A stretch of 64,000 nucleotides of DNA from a phage. This document shows positions 3,134 to 48,935 of the stretch, one piece after another. The position numbers and the translations under genes are program-made. Location: sequence record PZ452582.1. The stretch is one strand, 5' to 3'. A model generated the notes under the pieces. That model saw only the letters and a list, made by a program, of their open reading frames with translations, was not told where the DNA came from and did not search any database. Every line of letters starts with the position of its first letter. Positions within the stretch are counted from its first letter, which is position 1.

Positions 3134-3250
3134 TAGAATTCCCCAAAACTTTTTAAAAATTTTTTCACAAAACAGTTTACATCCTTACCCTTCCATGGTA
3201 CTATACAACTATCAACTACTGATACAGAAAACAACTTGGAGAATGAAATG
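3134..3250 (+). repeat. promoter-leader cassette copy A (PeSL-like), near-identical to 46217-46316
   Basis: Shared tagaattcc...ttttcacaaaac(a/t)gtttaca...ccatggtactatacaactatcaactactgatacag...ttggagaat(g/a)aaatg. Confidence 0.7.
3176..3204 (+). promoter_or_regulatory. early sigma70-type promoter (TTTACA-17-TACTAT, A/T-rich UP region)
   Basis: GTTTAC -35 motif typical of T4 early promoters; 17 bp spacer. Confidence 0.7.
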
Positions 3251-14664: not shown

Positions 14665-14693
14665 TTTACTTTCCGTTTGAGCTGTGGTACTAT
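14665..14693 (+). promoter_or_regulatory. early promoter (TTTACT-17-TACTAT)
   Basis: GTTTAC motif; shares ggtactatacaactatc leader with other copies. Confidence 0.65.
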
Positions 14694-14721
14694 ACAACTA
14701 TCGGATAAAGAGGAGAACATC

Positions 14722-14910
14722 ATGAAAATTGAAGCACTCAATCAAGAAGGAAATATCTACGTCATCATTAATGGTGATTTTTTCGTCGACATGGATGAAG
14801 TTACTAGTGAAGAACTTGTAGAACTTCTTAAGAAACGTTATAATATGTGTGATGAAGTTGCAACTCACATGGCGTGTGCAATATTCTCTCTTTCATATGT
14901 GGTGGAATAA
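14722..14910 (+). CDS. hypothetical protein (62 aa)
   Basis: ATG with SD gaggag; track ORF began at TTG 14677 inside the promoter. Confidence 0.5.
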
Positions 14911-18211: not shown

Positions 18212-18236
18212 ATTTCAAAAATTTTTCACAAAACTG

Positions 18237-18265
18237 TTTACAAGCATAAAGCTTTATGGTACTAT
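18237..18265 (+). promoter_or_regulatory. early promoter (TTTACA-17-TACTAT)
   Basis: GTTTAC motif; conserved ttttcacaaaac upstream and ggtactatacaactatcaa downstream. Confidence 0.65.
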
Positions 18266-18303
18266 ACAACTATCAAAACAAATGAGTAAATTGGAGATAC
18301 AAA

Positions 18304-19934: not shown

Positions 19935-19937
19935 TTG

Positions 19938-19966
19938 TTTACAAGACCGTTCCTCTGTGGTACTAT
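19938..19966 (+). promoter_or_regulatory. early promoter (TTTACA-17-TACTAT)
   Basis: GTTTAC motif; same leader ggtactatacaactatcaactac. Confidence 0.6.
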
Positions 19967-19994
19967 ACAACTATCAACTACGGAGGAACACAAA

Positions 19995-30207: not shown

Positions 30208-30279
30208 ACATTCTGTATATTACCATTCTAAGCTATCGTTCCCTTCTTATCATTCCCTAAAATAATTTTCACAAAGTTG

Positions 30280-30308
30280 TTTACAACAAGTTCAAACCGT
30301 GGTATTAT
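30280..30308 (+). promoter_or_regulatory. early promoter (TTTACA-17-TATTAT)
   Basis: GTTTAC motif with ttttcacaaag upstream element. Confidence 0.6.
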
Positions 30309-43433: not shown

Positions 43434-46130
43434 ATGAAAGAATTTTATATCTCTATTGAAACAGTCGGAAATAACATTGTTGAACGTTATATTGATGAAA
43501 ACGGAAAGGAACGTACTCGTGAAGTAGAATATCTTCCGACTATGTTTAGGCATTGTAAGGAAGAGTCAAAATACAAAGACATCTATGGTAAAAACTGCGC
43601 TCCTCAAAAATTTCCATCAATGAAAGATGCTCGAGATTGGATGAAGCGAATGGAAGACATCGGTCTCGAAGCTCTCGGTATGAACGATTTTAAACTCGCT
43701 TATATCAGTGATACATATGGTTCAGAAATTGTTTATGACCGAAAATTTGTTCGTGTAGCTAACTGTGACATTGAGGTTACTGGTGATAAATTTCCTGACC
43801 CAATGAAAGCTGAATATGAAATTGATGCTATCACTCATTACGATTCAATTGATGATCGTTTTTATGTTTTCGACCTTTTGAATTCAATGTATGGTTCAGT
43901 ATCAAAATGGGATGCAAAGTTAGCTGCTAAGCTTGACTGTGAAGGTGGTGATGAAGTTCCTCAAGAAATTCTTGACCGAGTAATTTATATGCCATTCGAT
44001 AACGAGCGTGATATGCTCATGGAATATATCAATCTCTGGGAACAGAAACGACCTGCTATTTTTACTGGTTGGAATATTGAGGGATTTGACGTTCCGTATA
44101 TCATGAATCGCGTTAAAATGGTTCTCGGTGAACGTAGTATGAAACGCTTCTCTCCAATCGGTCGAGTAAAATCTAAACTAATTCAAAATATGTACGGTAG
44201 CAAAGAAATTTATTCTATTGATGGCGTATCTATTCTTGATTATTTAGATTTGTACAAGAAATTCGCTTTTACTAATTTGCCGTCATTCTCTTTGGAATCA
44301 GTTGCTCAACATGAAACCAAAAAAGGTAAATTACCATATGATGGCCCTATTAATAAACTTCGTGAGACTAATCATCAACGATACATTAGTTATAACATCA
44401 TTGACGTAGAATCAGTTCAAGCAATTGATAAAATTCGCGGGTTTATCGATCTAGTTTTAAGTATGTCTTATTATGCTAAAATGCCTTTTTCTGGTGTAAT
44501 GAGTCCTATTAAAACTTGGGATGCTATTATTTTTAACTCATTGAAAGGTGAACATAAGGTTATTCCTCAACAAGGTTCGCATGTTAAACAGAGTTTTCCG
44601 GGTGCATTTGTGTTTGAACCTAAACCAATTGCTCGTCGATATATTATGAGTTTTGACTTGACGTCTCTGTATCCGAGCATTATTCGTCAGGTTAACATTA
44701 GTCCTGAGACTATTCGTGGTCAGTTTAAAGTTCATCCAATTCATGAATATATCGCAGGAACAGCTCCTAAACCAAGTGATGAATATTCTTGTTCTCCGAA
44801 TGGATGGATGTATGATAAGCATCAAGAAGGTATCATTCCAAAGGAAATCGCTAAAGTATTTTTCCAGCGTAAAGATTGGAAAAAGAAAATGTTCGCTGAA
44901 GAAATGAATGCCGAAGCTATTAAAAAGATTATTATGAAAGGCGCAGGGTCTTGTTCAACTAAACCTGAAGTTGAACGATATGTTAAGTTCAGTGATGATT
45001 TCTTAAATGAATTATCGAATTACACTGAATCTGTTCTTAATAGTCTGATCGAAGAATGTGAAAAAGCAGCTACACTTGCTAACACAAATCAGCTGAACCG
45101 TAAAATTCTTATTAACAGTCTTTATGGTGCTCTTGGTAATATTCATTTCCGTTACTATGATTTGCGAAATGCTACTGCTATCACAATTTTCGGCCAAGTT
45201 GGTATTCAGTGGATTGCTCGTAAAATTAATGAATATCTGAATAAAGTATGCGGAACTAATGGCGAAGATTTCATTGCAGCAGGTGATACTGATTCGGTAT
45301 ATGTTTGTGTAGATAAAGTTATTGAAAAAGTTGGTCTTGACCGATTCAAAGAGCAGAACGATTTAGTTGAATTCATGAATCAGTTCGGTAAGAAAAAAAT
45401 GGAACCGATGATTGATGTTGCATATCGTGAGTTATGTGATTATATGAATAACCGCGAGCATCTGATGCATATGGACCGTGAAGCTATTTCTTGCCCTCCG
45501 CTTGGTTCAAAGGGTGTCGGTGGATTTTGGAAAGCGAAAAAGCGTTATGCTCTGAACGTTTATGATATGGAAGATAAGCGATTTGCTGAACCGCATCTAA
45601 AAATCATGGGTATGGAAACTCAGCAAAGTTCAACGCCTAAAGCGGTTCAAGAAGCTCTCGAAGAAAGTATTCGTCGTATTCTTCAGGAAGGTGAAGAGTC
45701 TGTCCAAGAATATTACAAAAACTTCGAGAAAGAATATCGTCAACTTGACTATAAAGTTATTGCTGAAGTAAAAACTGCGAACGATATAGCGAAATATGAT
45801 GATAAAGGTTGGCCAGGATTTAAATGCCCGTTCCATATTCGTGGGGTGCTAACTTATCGTCGAGCTGTTAGCGGTTTAGGTGTAGCTCCAATTTTGGATG
45901 GAAATAAAGTAATGGTTCTTCCATTGCGTGAAGGAAATCCATTTGGTGACAAGTGCATTGCTTGGCCGTCGGGTACAGAACTTCCAAAAGAAATTCGTTC
46001 TGACGTACTGTCTTGGATTGACTACTCAACTTTGTTCCAAAAATCGTTTGTTAAACCGCTTGCAGGCATGTGTGAATCGGCTGGTATGGACTATGAAGAA
46101 AAAGCTTCGTTAGACTTCCTGTTTGGCTGA
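43434..46130 (+). CDS. 43: DNA polymerase gp43 (family B)
   Basis: 898 aa; exonuclease and polymerase motifs incl. YGDTDS. Confidence 0.97.
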   Translation: MKEFYISIETVGNNIVERYIDENGKERTREVEYLPTMFRHCKEESKYKDIYGKNCAPQKFPSMKDARDWMKRMEDIGLEALGMNDFKLAYISDTYGSEIVYDRKFVRVANCDIEVTGDKFPDPMKAEYEIDAITHYDSIDDRFYVFDLLNSMYGSVSKWDAKLAAKLDCEGGDEVPQEILDRVIYMPFDNERDMLMEYINLWEQKRPAIFTGWNIEGFDVPYIMNRVKMVLGERSMKRFSPIGRVKSKLIQNMYGSKEIYSIDGVSILDYLDLYKKFAFTNLPSFSLESVAQHETKKGKLPYDGPINKLRETNHQRYISYNIIDVESVQAIDKIRGFIDLVLSMSYYAKMPFSGVMSPIKTWDAIIFNSLKGEHKVIPQQGSHVKQSFPGAFVFEPKPIARRYIMSFDLTSLYPSIIRQVNISPETIRGQFKVHPIHEYIAGTAPKPSDEYSCSPNGWMYDKHQEGIIPKEIAKVFFQRKDWKKKMFAEEMNAEAIKKIIMKGAGSCSTKPEVERYVKFSDDFLNELSNYTESVLNSLIEECEKAATLANTNQLNRKILINSLYGALGNIHFRYYDLRNATAITIFGQVGIQWIARKINEYLNKVCGTNGEDFIAAGDTDSVYVCVDKVIEKVGLDRFKEQNDLVEFMNQFGKKKMEPMIDVAYRELCDYMNNREHLMHMDREAISCPPLGSKGVGGFWKAKKRYALNVYDMEDKRFAEPHLKIMGMETQQSSTPKAVQEALEESIRRILQEGEESVQEYYKNFEKEYRQLDYKVIAEVKTANDIAKYDDKGWPGFKCPFHIRGVLTYRRAVSGLGVAPILDGNKVMVLPLREGNPFGDKCIAWPSGTELPKEIRSDVLSWIDYSTLFQKSFVKPLAGMCESAGMDYEEKASLDFLFG

Positions 46131-46143
46131 TAGAATAAATCTA

Positions 46144-46164
46144 GGGACCTCCGGGTCCCTTTTT
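46144..46164 (+). terminator. rho-independent terminator
   Basis: gggacc-tccg-ggtccc plus TTTTT. Confidence 0.8.
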
Positions 46165-46216: not shown

Positions 46217-46316
46217 TAGAATTCCCTAAAAAATTTTCACAAAACTGTTTACAAGACTGTTCTTCCATGGTACTATACAACTATCAACTACTGATACAGA
46301 TTTGGAGAATAAAATG
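46217..46316 (+). repeat. promoter-leader cassette copy B (PeSL-like), near-identical to 3134-3250
   Basis: Same -35/-10, leader and ttggagaat.aaaatg start context as copy A. Confidence 0.7.
46248..46276 (+). promoter_or_regulatory. early promoter (TTTACA-17-TACTAT)
   Basis: GTTTAC motif. Confidence 0.65.
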
Positions 46317-46550
46317 AAAATTGTTATGGGATGCTTAGCAGTTTGTTTAGTTGCATTAGCAGCAGTTCCATTTGTTAGTGTTGAAAATGATACTCAACCT
46401 GCGATTGAATCTAGCACCGTTATTCACACTAATGGTAAAATATCAGTTAAAATTGATGATAATCTTCATGTGAATACAAATGGATCTTTAGGTGTGCAAA
46501 TGGGTAATACCTGCATAAGCACTACTGGAGTAATTACTACTTGCATTTGA
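46314..46550 (+). CDS. secreted small protein (78 aa) with N-terminal signal peptide
   Basis: MKIVMGCLAVCLVALAAVPF hydrophobic N-terminus; SD ggag; track ORF began at TTG 46302. Confidence 0.55.
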   Translation: MKIVMGCLAVCLVALAAVPFVSVENDTQPAIESSTVIHTNGKISVKIDDNLHVNTNGSLGVQMGNTCISTTGVITTCI

Positions 46551-46560
46551 GGAAATTATT

Positions 46561-46941
46561 ATGAAAATCGCTATTTTGGTTATTGCATTAGGTCTTACTG
46601 GTTGTGTAGCTCAAGGACCGGTAGTAAATCAGTCTGATGTAGGAAAAATTGTAAACTGTTCAAGCAAATTTTATAATCCTAATGTCAAGTGTTATAAAGA
46701 AGCTCCAAAGCAAACAGTAGAACAAATGCAGGCGAATTTTGACGAAGCTATTCGTCCAGATGAATCTGCTCAAGCATATCGTAATTCGGATGTAATTACA
46801 CGCGAAGAAAAAATTGAAAATTACTGCGCCGAGCTTTGGGCTAATTGGGCTAATAATTACCAATGGCGTACTGGTAAAAATGCTCCGATGGAGTATGTAG
46901 TGAATTCTTATAATTCATGTGTAAAAAATTTGACTAAGTGA
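46561..46941 (+). CDS. predicted lipoprotein (126 aa)
   Basis: Signal peptide with lipobox LTGC (MKIAILVIALGLTGC); SD gagga. Confidence 0.6.
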   Translation: MKIAILVIALGLTGCVAQGPVVNQSDVGKIVNCSSKFYNPNVKCYKEAPKQTVEQMQANFDEAIRPDESAQAYRNSDVITREEKIENYCAELWANWANNYQWRTGKNAPMEYVVNSYNSCVKNLTK

Positions 46942-46948
46942 GGAAAAT

Positions 46949-47263
46949 ATGGAAACTTTAGTAGCAGGTTCAATTTTTATGGTTTTAGTTTCAGGTGTGT
47001 TGGCTATTATTATATACATGCTTCCATGGTTTATTGCTTTGATGCGTGGGTCAAAATCGACAGTAGGAATCTTTTTCACATCTTTACTGTTTAACTGGTC
47101 AATTATTGGTTGGTTTATTACATTTATTTGGTCAATTGCGGGTGAAACTAAAAAGTCTGCACAACCAAATCAGGTAATTATCATCAGAGAGAGAAGGAAT
47201 GAAAAGCAAAATTATAGCAGTGTTGCTTTTAATCTTGATGATTATAATAAGTATATACTATAG
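46949..47263 (+). CDS. imm: membrane protein at the imm position (immunity to superinfection-like)
   Basis: Two to three TM helices; directly upstream of gene 42 as T4 imm; SD gtgagga. Confidence 0.5.
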   Translation: METLVAGSIFMVLVSGVLAIIIYMLPWFIALMRGSKSTVGIFFTSLLFNWSIIGWFITFIWSIAGETKKSAQPNQVIIIRERRNEKQNYSSVAFNLDDYNKYIL

Positions 47264-47355
47264 TGTAACGGTTCCTCTTATGATTCCGACTATTATTTTA
47301 GGTTGGAGCTTATTACTGTTACAAGTTAAATATGAATGTATCAATTGAGGTTTAA

Positions 47356-48096
47356 ATGATTAGTGACTCTATGACAGTTGAAGAAATCCGTCTTCATTTG
47401 GGGCTTGCATTAAAAGAAAAAGATTTCGTAGTTGATAAAACCGGTGTTAAAACTATTGAAATTATTGGCGCATCATTTGTAGCAGATGAACCGTTTATTT
47501 TTGGTGCTCTTAATGATGAATACATTCAGCGTGAACTTGAATGGTATAAATCTAAGAGCTTGTTCGTTAAAGATATTCCAGGTGAAACACCGAAGATTTG
47601 GCAACAAGTAGCATCTTCTAAAGGCGAAATTAACTCGAACTATGGTTGGGCTATTTGGTCAGAAGATAACTATGCCCAGTATGATATGTGTTTAGCTGAA
47701 CTTGGTCAAAATCCTGATTCTCGACGTGGTATCATGATTTATACTCGTCCATCCATGCAATTTGACTACAATAAAGATGGTATGTCAGATTTCATGTGTA
47801 CTAATACAGTACAGTACCTGATTCGTGATAAGAAAGTCAATGCAGTAGTAAGCATGCGCTCAAATGACGTGGTCTTCGGATTCCGTAATGATTATGCATG
47901 GCAAAAATACGTATTAGATAAATTAGTATCTGATTTGAATGCCGGCGATTCATCTCGTCAGTATAAAGCAGGTTCTATTATATGGAATGTCGGAAGTCTT
48001 CATGTATATTCTCGTCATTTTTACTTGGTTGATCATTGGTGGAATACTGGCGAAACTCATATTGTGAAAAAAGACTATAAAGGTGAGTGGAAATGA
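47356..48096 (+). CDS. 42: dCMP hydroxymethylase gp42
   Basis: 246 aa thymidylate-synthase-like fold; position between imm and glycosyltransferase. Confidence 0.95.
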   Translation: MISDSMTVEEIRLHLGLALKEKDFVVDKTGVKTIEIIGASFVADEPFIFGALNDEYIQRELEWYKSKSLFVKDIPGETPKIWQQVASSKGEINSNYGWAIWSEDNYAQYDMCLAELGQNPDSRRGIMIYTRPSMQFDYNKDGMSDFMCTNTVQYLIRDKKVNAVVSMRSNDVVFGFRNDYAWQKYVLDKLVSDLNAGDSSRQYKAGSIIWNVGSLHVYSRHFYLVDHWWNTGETHIVKKDYKGEWK

Positions 48097-48935
48097 TTCA
48101 ATTCGTAATTCCAAGTTATCAGCGTGTCAGGGCAGTTTCTGCCCTTGATATGTTTCCGACTGATTATGAACCGCATATTGTAGTGCGTGAACATGAAGAA
48201 AAAGCTTATCATGACGCTTATGGGTCTAGAGCTAAAATTATAACTATTCCTGATGATGTAAACGGAATTGCCGGTACTCGTAAAGCAATTACCGATATAT
48301 ATGCAGGTCAACGAATCTGGATGATTGACGATGATACTACTATTCGTATGAGTTCAATGCGAAAAAGAGATGATCGTCGTTGCGTAGATAAAGTCAATCA
48401 ATTGACTCGTGAACAGTTCTATGAATTGATTCAATATGTTGAGGATGCCATGGATTGCGGGTATTATCATGGCCATGCTCGTCTACCTATTTTTAAAATT
48501 ACTTCATCTTGGGGTAATTATCGTGAAAATTCATATGGATTCACGAATACATGGTATGACCTCGGAAAACTTACGACAGAACAAATTGGGTATGGAAAAA
48601 TTGATTTATGCGAAGATATGTATGCATTTCTCAATTTAATTAATCAAGGTTATCCGCATTTGGCCTTGTTCAAATATCTAGTTGTATCTGGAAAAGCACA
48701 AGCTCCTGGCGGGTGCAGTTCAATTCGTAGTAATTCTAAACATAATAGAGCGCTTGAGCAGATTAATAGAGAGTTTCCAGAGCAAGCTCGTTGGAAAACT
48801 TCTAATATTGAAAAACGAAAATCGTTGGGTGAAGAAGACGAACCATTAAAGGTTCTTCGCATGTGCGTTTCACGTAAAGAAAAATCAGAAGCATTTCATA
48901 AGTTTAATGCTATTCATCCAATAGCAGTTGATTAA
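48093..48935 (+). CDS. GT-A fold glycosyltransferase (DxD motif) at the T4 beta-gt position; not T4 beta-gt
   Basis: WMIDDDTT DxD motif; ATGA-coupled to gene 42; 280 aa vs 351 aa for T4 beta-gt. Confidence 0.6.
   Translation: MIQFVIPSYQRVRAVSALDMFPTDYEPHIVVREHEEKAYHDAYGSRAKIITIPDDVNGIAGTRKAITDIYAGQRIWMIDDDTTIRMSSMRKRDDRRCVDKVNQLTREQFYELIQYVEDAMDCGYYHGHARLPIFKITSSWGNYRENSYGFTNTWYDLGKLTTEQIGYGKIDLCEDMYAFLNLINQGYPHLALFKYLVVSGKAQAPGGCSSIRSNSKHNRALEQINREFPEQARWKTSNIEKRKSLGEEDEPLKVLRMCVSRKEKSEAFHKFNAIHPIAVD

What the first reader, a model, noticed from the sequence alone, without database searches (positions are those of the whole stretch)
46314..46941. Secreted protein and lipoprotein cassette next to imm
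Directly behind promoter-leader copy B are a 78-aa protein with a signal-peptide-like N-terminus and a 126-aa predicted lipoprotein (lipobox LTGC), followed by the imm-like membrane protein. Envelope-targeted early proteins at this locus are candidates for superinfection exclusion or receptor masking; the lipoprotein is not something I recall in T4.
Basis: partly seen in the sequence, partly recalled or inferred. Interest (0 to 1): 0.5.

Follow-up and report, generated by a model that had tools for sequence, protein, structure and literature searches.

The report
T4 Imm.1 lipoprotein plus accessory gene
The "lipoprotein" is the long-annotated but uncharacterised T4 gene imm.1, which stays next to the superinfection-immunity gene imm across T-even phages, while the 78-residue gene is a common accessory gene in a variable slot that T4 lacks.

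Summary
They follow gene 43, its terminator and a standard T4 early promoter.

**The 126-aa protein** has a canonical lipobox (LTGC, Cys15). It is not absent from T4. It is T4 Imm.1, about 99% identical (Pfam DUF5481, phrog_1754), and is present in 657 phage records.

New here: the lipobox cysteine is kept in Imm.1-family proteins from six Tevenvirinae genera. The gene always lies beside imm, although the pair sits in other genomic places in some lineages, and the lipoprotein gene lies downstream of imm in two genera. It is under very strong purifying selection (dN/dS 0.016). I read it as a periplasm-facing, probably outer-membrane lipoprotein that works with Imm. That function is inferred, not shown.

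**The 78-aa ORF** (phrog_4189) is a real gene (dN/dS about 0.2) in 326 records. It has an N-terminal hydrophobic export or anchor segment and two conserved C-terminal cysteines. Its slot is empty in T4 and holds an unrelated gene in T2, so its position says nothing about its function.

No structural or sequence relatives with a known function were found. Both genes are already known and functionally uncharacterised. Interest is modest.

The parts
46143..46160 (+). Intrinsic terminator after gene 43 (DNA polymerase, 43434-46130)
   Evidence: GC-rich 7-bp stem followed by a T run. Annotated as a terminator in related phage records.
46248..46276 (+). T4-type early promoter (TTTACA, 17 nt, TG-TACTAT) with a conserved leader running to the Shine-Dalgarno sequence at 46303-46306
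   Evidence: Consensus scan. The same extended promoter-leader is repeated at about 3156-3250, 18217-18276, 19936-19984 and 30252-30286 of the window, and is identical upstream of T4 imm.1.
46314..46550 (+). ORF-A: 78-aa accessory protein with an N-terminal hydrophobic export or anchor segment and a beta-rich, acidic C-terminal part carrying conserved Cys67 and Cys77. Absent from T4.
   Evidence: phrog_4189 at 7.5e-30 with no Pfam match. Found in 326 phage records, always at this slot in every locus inspected. dN/dS 0.20. Alignment A1. AF2 pLDDT 54.6, six short strands.
46561..46941 (+). imm.1: 126-aa predicted lipoprotein (signal peptide residues 1-14, lipobox LTGC, lipidated Cys15, Val at +2). 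The mature domain has the YNPNVK.Y motif and a C-terminal helical hairpin with conserved Cys89 and Cys120.
   Evidence: About 99% identical to T4 NP_049661. DUF5481 at 5e-72 and phrog_1754 at 5e-44. PS51257-type pattern match. Alignments A2 and A5. AF2 model. dN/dS 0.016.
46949..47263 (+). imm: superinfection-immunity inner-membrane protein. It is 104 aa here because (AG)4 at 47186-47193, against (AG)3 in T4, shifts the frame after residue 81.
   Evidence: PF14373 at 1.2e-15. T4 Imm is 83 aa. No phage record carries this 2-nt insertion.
47199..47348 (+). 49-aa hydrophobic ORF overlapping the end of imm. A possible third member of the module.
   Evidence: phrog_3610 at 9.5e-26. Conserved after imm in Gaprivervirus and in a metagenomic contig. 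Present but unannotated in T4 RefSeq.

Best explanation
The interval holds two early genes transcribed with imm from one T4-type early promoter.

(1) The 126-aa gene is imm.1.
- Its product is exported by Sec.
- It is predicted to be lipidated on Cys15.
- With no Asp at +2, it would be sorted by Lol to the inner leaflet of the outer membrane. There a roughly 110-residue, disulfide-stabilised and largely helical domain would face the periplasm.
- I propose that it is the accessory partner of the inner-membrane protein Imm. Together they would help stop a superinfecting T-even phage from carrying its DNA across the periplasm. The action would be on a target common to all T-even phages or to the host envelope, not on a particular receptor.

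(2) The 78-aa gene is an unrelated, optional accessory gene that has landed in the variable slot just behind the promoter. Its product is either secreted to the periplasm or anchored in the inner membrane by its N-terminus with the C-terminal part in the periplasm. It evolves quickly. Its function is unknown, but it probably acts at the cell envelope.

Shown here: gene identity, targeting motifs, conservation, linkage and selection. Inferred: lipidation, outer-membrane location, the partnership with Imm and any exclusion activity.
For: Identity with T4 imm.1:
-.

Targeting motifs:
- The lipobox pattern is met.
- The lipobox Cys is kept in Tequatrovirus, Mosigvirus, Gelderlandvirus, Jiaodavirus, Gaprivervirus, Dhakavirus and two metagenomic lineages, never with Asp at +2.
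- All of these proteins fall in phrog_1754.
- Two exceptions carry a signal-peptidase-I-type signal instead, so periplasmic exposure is the constant feature. One of them, the Yersinia phage MHG19 protein, matched no PHROG family, so its membership rests on position and motif resemblance.

Linkage to imm:
- The gene is always next to imm while the surroundings change: 43|imm.1|imm|42 in Tequatrovirus; dmd|imm.1|imm|sp in Mosigvirus; after an FRD3 homologue in contig L006; 43|imm|small ORF|lipoprotein|uvsX in Gaprivervirus, and 43|imm|lipoprotein in Dhakavirus.
- 21 of 21 IMG/VR Imm loci on contigs of 51-172 kb (plus one 6.7-kb fragment) with 43-100% Imm identity show it.
- There is no terminator between the genes, and each stop codon overlaps the next Shine-Dalgarno sequence.

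Selection:
- Imm.1 dN/dS is 0.016 and imm is 0.037, against 0.006 for the DNA polymerase C-terminus.

Same protein across receptor types:
- Imm.1 is nearly identical in T2 and T4.

ORF-A:
- dN/dS 0.20, with dN about 30 times that of imm.1.
- The slot varies between phages.
- The two C-terminal cysteines are conserved in most variants.
Against: - No experiment links Imm.1 to exclusion, and I found no paper on its function.
- From my memory of Lu and Henning 1989, which I could not retrieve, plasmid-borne imm alone excludes T4. If so, Imm.1 is not required for the core Imm activity.
- Imm homologues outside Tevenvirinae have no adjacent lipoprotein (59 loci; 4 of 340 neighbouring ORFs against 36 of 1690 background ORFs).
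- Gene order in T4-like phages is conserved in general, so part of the adjacency is simply inheritance.
- The structure model is poor for the N-terminal half (mean pLDDT 63.7), and no fold relatives with a known function were found.
- Outer-membrane sorting rests only on the +2 rule.
Confidence: 0.4

Rival explanations
1. Imm.1 is an envelope lipoprotein with a role unrelated to Imm. Examples are lysis-inhibition signalling, resistance to lysis from without, envelope stabilisation during infection, or countering a host envelope defence. Its place beside imm would reflect only shared early expression and inherited gene order.
For: - Imm works without such a partner in many other phages.
- Synteny is generally conserved in T4-like genomes.
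- In Mosigvirus the pair lies among other envelope and early genes (sp, dmd).
- No sequence or structural clue points to a specific activity.
Against: - The pair moves as a unit to different genomic contexts, and adjacency survives a change of gene order.
- Selection is similarly extreme on both genes.
Confidence: 0.3
2. Imm.1 works like T5 Llp or the Cor proteins. In that case it is an outer-membrane lipoprotein that binds the phage's own outer-membrane receptor from the periplasmic side and masks it, blocking adsorption of further phage.
For: - It is a small, early-expressed predicted outer-membrane lipoprotein with an intramolecular cysteine pair, as described for Llp and Cor (PMC9586334).
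- The lipobox is conserved.
Against: - Imm.1 is almost invariant between T2 and T4 and has dN/dS 0.016 across Tequatroviruses. Those phages use different receptors (textbook knowledge).
- It is linked to imm, not to adhesin genes.
- It shows no sequence similarity to any PDB chain, a set that includes FhuA-Llp entry 8A60, and Foldseek found no PDB match.
- Classical T-even exclusion acts after adsorption (PMC7677548, and general knowledge).
Confidence: 0.08
3. The 78-aa ORF-A is itself a superinfection-exclusion or receptor-modifying factor. It would be fast-evolving because it tracks variable phage or host surface components.
For: - It is exported or anchored at the envelope, early-expressed, and has a possible periplasmic disulfide.
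- Its amino-acid divergence is about 30 times that of its neighbours, yet dN/dS is below 1.
- It is present in about two-thirds of Tequatrovirus records.
Against: - It is dispensable: absent in T4 and T2.
- The slot also takes an unrelated, non-secreted gene.
- dN/dS of 0.2 gives no sign of positive selection.
- No homologue has a known function, and the model is of low confidence.
Confidence: 0.2

Closest known systems
Phage T4 Imm.1 (gene imm.1, NP_049661; Pfam DUF5481; PHROG 1754)
   Same: It has the same length apart from one residue, is about 99% identical, lies at the same position between genes 43 and imm, and has the same promoter and leader.
   Different: The lipobox reads LTGC here and LAGC in T4, and there is one extra C-terminal Lys. 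In T4 the gene directly follows the leader. Here ORF-A lies in between.
T5 Llp and the Cor family of superinfection-exclusion lipoproteins
   Same: Both are small, early-expressed phage lipoproteins predicted to sit on the periplasmic face of the outer membrane and to carry an intramolecular disulfide. They serve as a model for how a phage lipoprotein can block superinfection (PMC9586334).
   Different: There is no detectable sequence or fold similarity. Imm.1 is twice as long. It is linked to imm, not to the receptor-binding protein gene. It is invariant across phages that use different receptors.
T4 Spackle (gp61.3)
   Same: Both are early periplasmic T-even proteins tied to superinfection exclusion alongside Imm (PMC7677548). 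In Mosigvirus the sp gene lies directly after imm.1-imm.
   Different: Spackle is a soluble periplasmic protein, not a lipoprotein. A profile comparison aligns only the signal peptides.
phrog_4189 (Tequatrovirus hypothetical proteins such as HY01_0043 and KMC07_gp047)
   Same: ORF-A is 76-98% identical to these proteins and sits in the same slot.
   Different: Nothing notable. Some variants carry 7-residue duplications in the hydrophobic segment, and one of these creates an LAAC motif that UniRef labels 'Lipoprotein'.

Membership tests
T4 Imm.1 / Pfam DUF5481 / phrog_1754 | Profile match above the curated threshold over the whole domain | tested here: met
   DUF5481 scores 239.2 bits against a cut-off of 27, covering profile positions 1-103 of 103. 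phrog_1754 matches at E 5e-44.
T4 Imm.1 / Pfam DUF5481 / phrog_1754 | Orthologous position immediately upstream of imm, and near-identity to T4 NP_049661 | tested here: met
   T4 locus L001 shows 43|imm.1|imm|42. The translation differs by one residue plus a C-terminal Lys.
Bacterial lipoprotein precursors (PROSITE PS51257 type; Lgt/LspA/Lnt substrates) | Basic n-region, uncharged h-region, and a lipobox [LVI][ASTVI][GAS]C with the Cys at position 15-35 | tested here: met
   MKIAILVIALGLTGC has Cys15 and Lys2. The Cys is conserved in 9 of 11 diverged homologues.
Bacterial lipoprotein precursors (PROSITE PS51257 type; Lgt/LspA/Lnt substrates) | Actual diacylglyceryl modification, LspA cleavage, and membrane location | not testable with these tools
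   This needs globomycin sensitivity, lipid labelling and membrane fractionation. An outer-membrane location is inferred only from the absence of Asp at +2.
Llp/Cor superinfection-exclusion lipoproteins | Sequence or structural similarity to Llp or Cor | tested here: not met
   A profile search of all PDB sequences gave no relevant hit at E<=10. Foldseek against the PDB gave nothing below E 2.8, but the query model is of low confidence.
Llp/Cor superinfection-exclusion lipoproteins | Encoded next to the receptor-binding protein gene, and specific for that phage's receptor | tested here: not met
   The gene lies next to imm in all lineages examined. It is almost identical in T2 and T4.
Imm_superinfect (PF14373), for the neighbouring gene | Profile match above threshold and two hydrophobic segments | tested here: met
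   57.5 bits against a cut-off of 27.9. Two transmembrane-like segments.
Sec signal peptide cleaved by signal peptidase I (for ORF-A) | n-region, h-region, and a polar c-region with small residues at -3 and -1 | tested here: inconclusive
   Lys2 and a 19-residue hydrophobic stretch are present. The only Ala-x-Ala site (residues 14-16) lies inside that stretch, and no polar c-region is conserved. It could be an uncleaved signal anchor. No SignalP was available.
phrog_4189 (for ORF-A) | Full-length profile match | tested here: met
   E 7.5e-30, ORF residues 1-78 against profile positions 1-71 of 71.
Spackle (gp61.3)-like periplasmic lysozyme inhibitor | Homology of the mature domain to Spackle | tested here: not met
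   hhalign aligns only the 18-residue signal peptide, with probability 38%.

The most novel reading that the evidence does not exclude
Imm.1 is the outer-membrane-anchored half of a trans-envelope superinfection-immunity device specific to T-even phages. The other parts would be Imm in the inner membrane and perhaps the conserved 49-aa membrane peptide. Imm.1 would engage the incoming tail tip or the periplasmic DNA conduit. That would explain how Imm, whose mechanism has stayed unknown since the 1980s, diverts DNA into the periplasm.
Probability: 0.25. Interest if true: 0.6.

Novelty: already known. Interest (0 to 1): 0.3.

Why it matters
How T4 Imm blocks DNA entry is still not understood. 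A strictly co-located, equally constrained lipoprotein partner is a cheap, testable lead, using deletion mutants, co-expression and interaction assays. Such a partner has been annotated for decades only as a "hypothetical predicted membrane protein", and in RefSeq is now mislabelled "iduronate sulfatase".

If Imm.1 takes part, superinfection immunity in T-even phages would span both membranes. That would matter for the design of phage cocktails and for understanding lysis inhibition.

If it does not, the result is simply a corrected annotation. Imm.1 would be a conserved lipoprotein of Tevenvirinae, and the 78-aa gene a common accessory gene in a variable slot.

Tried and rejected
- **Literature.** Searches for "imm.1", DUF5481 and NP_049661, and combinations with spackle, uvsX and superinfection, gave nothing relevant. 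"imm.1" collides with journal abbreviations. The T4 genome review and Lu and Henning 1989 are not held.
- **Homologue searches.** The word-indexed search found 3 clusters. The exhaustive HMMER search of 1.84 billion representatives found only 6, so the family is very narrow.
- **Structure.** The Imm.1 AF2 model has mean pLDDT 63.7 and is confident only for the C-terminal helical hairpin. The ORF-A model has pLDDT 54.6 and is unusable. Foldseek against BFVD returned only the protein's own family plus "Lipoprotein" entries from Citrobacter and Klebsiella T4-like phages. Foldseek against the PDB found nothing. The afdb50 library was unavailable.
- **Other sequence libraries.** PDB sequence profiles, NCBIfam and PADLOC gave no meaningful hits.
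- **Spackle homology.** Rejected, because only the signal peptides align.
- **ORF-A as a lipoprotein.** Rejected. VMGC (Cys7) is too close to the N-terminus, and LAVC has Val at -1. The LAAC motif in some variants arises from a repeat expansion inside the hydrophobic segment.
- **A general Imm-plus-lipoprotein association outside Tevenvirinae.** Rejected.
- **ORF-A as a functional part of the imm module.** Rejected, because the slot varies between phages.

Full report
**What is there**

The window comes from a T-even phage (Tequatrovirus). On the + strand the order is as follows:
- gene 43 DNA polymerase, 43434-46130
- an intrinsic terminator, 46143-46160
- a T4-type early promoter, 46248-46276 (TTTACA, 17 nt, TG-TACTAT)
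- a 78-aa ORF, 46314-46550, called ORF-A here
- a 126-aa ORF, 46561-46941
- imm, 46949-47263 (PF14373)
- a 49-aa hydrophobic ORF, 47199-47348
- gene 42, 47356-48096
- a T2/T6-type beta-glucosyl-HMC-alpha-glucosyltransferase, 48087-48935

Each of ORF-A, the 126-aa ORF and imm starts 7-8 nt after a GAGGA or GGAG. For the second and third genes that motif overlaps the preceding stop codon. No terminator separates them.

The promoter-leader is one copy of the extended T4 early-promoter consensus, which recurs several times in the window.

**The lipoprotein is T4 imm.1**

The T4 reference genome has imm.1 (NP_049661, 125 aa) directly between genes 43 and imm. Its translation is the same protein as the 126-aa ORF, apart from LAGC in place of LTGC and one missing C-terminal Lys.
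- The ORF scores 239 bits on Pfam DUF5481 and matches phrog_1754.
- tblastn finds it in 657 phage records. In 502 of them identity is at least 95%.

The lipobox itself holds up. The N-terminus MKIAILVIALGLTGC satisfies the PROSITE PS51257-type pattern, with Cys15 and Val at +2. The mature protein has four more cysteines.

**What the family looks like**

The family is very narrow. An exhaustive HMMER scan of 1.84 billion representative proteins found only six clusters.

By walking along imm loci I recovered further diverged members, and all fall in phrog_1754:
- Mosigvirus
- two metagenomic lineages
- Gelderlandvirus and Jiaodavirus
- Gaprivervirus and Dhakavirus

The lipobox cysteine is present in all of these (LAGC, LTGC, LVGC, TTGC or LSGC), and none has Asp at +2. 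By the established +2 rule this predicts Lol-dependent sorting to the outer membrane.

Two proteins have instead a signal-peptidase-I-type signal. They are P0018 and the protein upstream of imm in Yersinia phage MHG19. MHG19 matched no PHROG family, so I count it as a member only by position and motif resemblance. Periplasmic exposure is therefore the constant feature, and the lipid anchor is nearly constant.

One cysteine pair is nearly invariant (Cys89 and Cys120 in window numbering). In the AF2 model it lies in the only confidently predicted part, a C-terminal helical hairpin at residues 81-125.

No relative with a known function was found by Foldseek against BFVD or the PDB, by PDB sequence profiles, or in NCBIfam or PADLOC.

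**Linkage to imm**

In every lineage the lipoprotein gene is adjacent to imm, although the surroundings differ:

| Lineage | Gene order |
|---|---|
| Tequatrovirus and three other lineages | 43, imm.1, imm, 42 |
| Mosigvirus | dmd, imm.1, imm, sp |
| Metagenomic contig L006 | FRD3 homologue, imm.1, imm |
| Gaprivervirus | 43, imm, small ORF, lipoprotein, uvsX |
| Dhakavirus | 43, imm, lipoprotein |

In a systematic scan of 80 diverse Imm loci from IMG/VR, 21 carry the family next to imm. Those 21 lie on contigs of 51-172 kb (plus one 6.7-kb fragment) and have 43-100% Imm identity. The other 59 loci are mostly on contigs under 100 kb, with a few larger. They show no excess of lipobox ORFs near imm (4 of 340 neighbouring ORFs against 36 of 1690 in the background).

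The association is therefore specific to Tevenvirinae. It survives relocation and a change of gene order, which is more than inherited synteny alone would give.

**Selection**

I compared six Tequatroviruses chosen for divergent ORF-A:

| Gene | dN/dS |
|---|---|
| imm.1 | 0.016 (dN 0.002) |
| imm | 0.037 |
| gene 43, C-terminal part | 0.006 |
| ORF-A, mature part | 0.20 (dN 0.067) |

Imm.1 differs from the window's copy at 2 of 126 residues in T2 and at 1 of T4's 125 residues. These phages are textbook users of different outer-membrane receptors. That argues against an Llp/Cor-style receptor mask (PMC9586334). It fits a target shared by all T-even phages or by the host envelope, as is the case for Imm and Spackle (PMC7677548).

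**The 78-aa ORF**

ORF-A belongs to phrog_4189 and has no Pfam match. It occurs in 326 phage records, about two-thirds of the Tequatrovirus records that carry imm.1. In every locus I inspected it lies in this slot.

It is a real gene under purifying selection. Its protein sequence nonetheless diverges about 30 times faster than its neighbours, and its dS is also higher, which suggests old allelic lineages or imported alleles.

Its features are as follows:
- Residues 3-21 are strongly hydrophobic.
- Some variants carry 7-residue duplications (LAVCLVA) in this segment. One duplication creates an LAAC motif that UniRef labels "Lipoprotein".
- The only Ala-x-Ala site lies inside the hydrophobic stretch, so I cannot tell a cleaved signal peptide from a signal anchor.
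- The C-terminal 55 residues are acidic and predicted to be beta-rich. The two cysteines (67 and 77) are conserved in most variants, which fits a periplasmic location.

In T4 the slot is empty. The shared leader joins directly to the ATGAAAAT of imm.1, and the 247-bp extra segment in the window starts with the same 8-mer. In T2 the slot holds an unrelated 83-aa protein with no signal peptide, found in 38 records. Shigella phage CT01 has a scrambled partial duplication there. ORF-A's position next to imm.1 is therefore not evidence of a shared function.

**Conclusion**

It is partly wrong: the lipoprotein is T4's own imm.1, receptor masking is unlikely, and the two ORFs are not a cassette.

My best-supported mechanism, at confidence about 0.4, is that Imm.1 is a periplasm-facing, probably outer-membrane lipoprotein that acts with Imm in superinfection immunity. 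The main rival, at about 0.3, is an envelope role unrelated to Imm.

I found no published functional work on Imm.1 in the searchable library. From memory, imm alone on a plasmid excludes T4 (Lu and Henning 1989, not retrievable here). If that is right, Imm.1 would be an enhancer or act at a parallel step, not serve as an essential subunit.

Both genes are already known sequences of unknown function.

Noticed in passing
window 47186-47193 (3' end of imm): The dinucleotide run is (AG)4 here against (AG)3 in T4. This shifts the imm frame after residue 81, giving a 104-aa Imm with a new 23-residue tail in place of T4's 83 aa. None of 400 matching phage records has this 2-nt insertion (best identity 97.4%). 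It is either a rare variant or a sequencing error.
   Followed up: partly
window 47199-47348: A 49-aa very hydrophobic ORF (phrog_3610) overlaps the end of imm. The same ORF is present but unannotated in T4 RefSeq NC_000866. Homologues with a conserved C-terminus (MIPT..L.W...LQ.[KR][YF]EC[IF]N) follow imm in Gaprivervirus P479 and in metagenomic contig L006. It may be a third member of the imm module.
   Followed up: partly
L001 3637-4014 (T4 NC_000866 imm.1): RefSeq gives the product of T4 imm.1 as 'iduronate sulfatase'. Pfam, PHROGs and NCBIfam give no support for this, and it looks like an annotation error that has spread to other records (for example JLBYU31).
   Followed up: partly
window 46314-46560; L102 745-1100; L021 1160-1480: The slot between the early promoter and imm.1 is variable. 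It is empty in T4, holds ORF-A here, and holds an unrelated 83-aa gene plus a 35-aa ORF in T2. Shigella phage CT01 has a scrambled arrangement (imm.1 fragment, ORF-A fragment, promoter fragment, then full imm.1). The ORF-A segment is bounded by the repeated 8-mer ATGAAAAT. This suggests recombination at short start-of-gene homologies and repeated promoters.
   Followed up: partly
window 46220-46313, and about 3156-3250, 14685-14731, 18217-18276, 19936-19984, 30252-30286: The extended early promoter and leader are repeated. One 39-nt stretch is 100% identical at 3190-3228. This is the T4 early-promoter consensus extending well beyond the -35 and -10 elements.
   Followed up: partly
window 48087-48935: The gene after 42 is a beta-glucosyl-HMC-alpha-glucosyltransferase (phrog_842, Pfam TAGT), as in T2 and T6, not T4's beta-glucosyltransferase. 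Its start overlaps the end of gene 42. The phage is therefore of the T2/T6 type for DNA glucosylation.
   Followed up: no
L003 2495-3530 (Mosigvirus PhAPEC2): In Mosigvirus, imm.1, imm and sp (spackle) are contiguous between dmd and 61.2. The two known exclusion genes and the lipoprotein gene thus sit in one block.
   Followed up: partly
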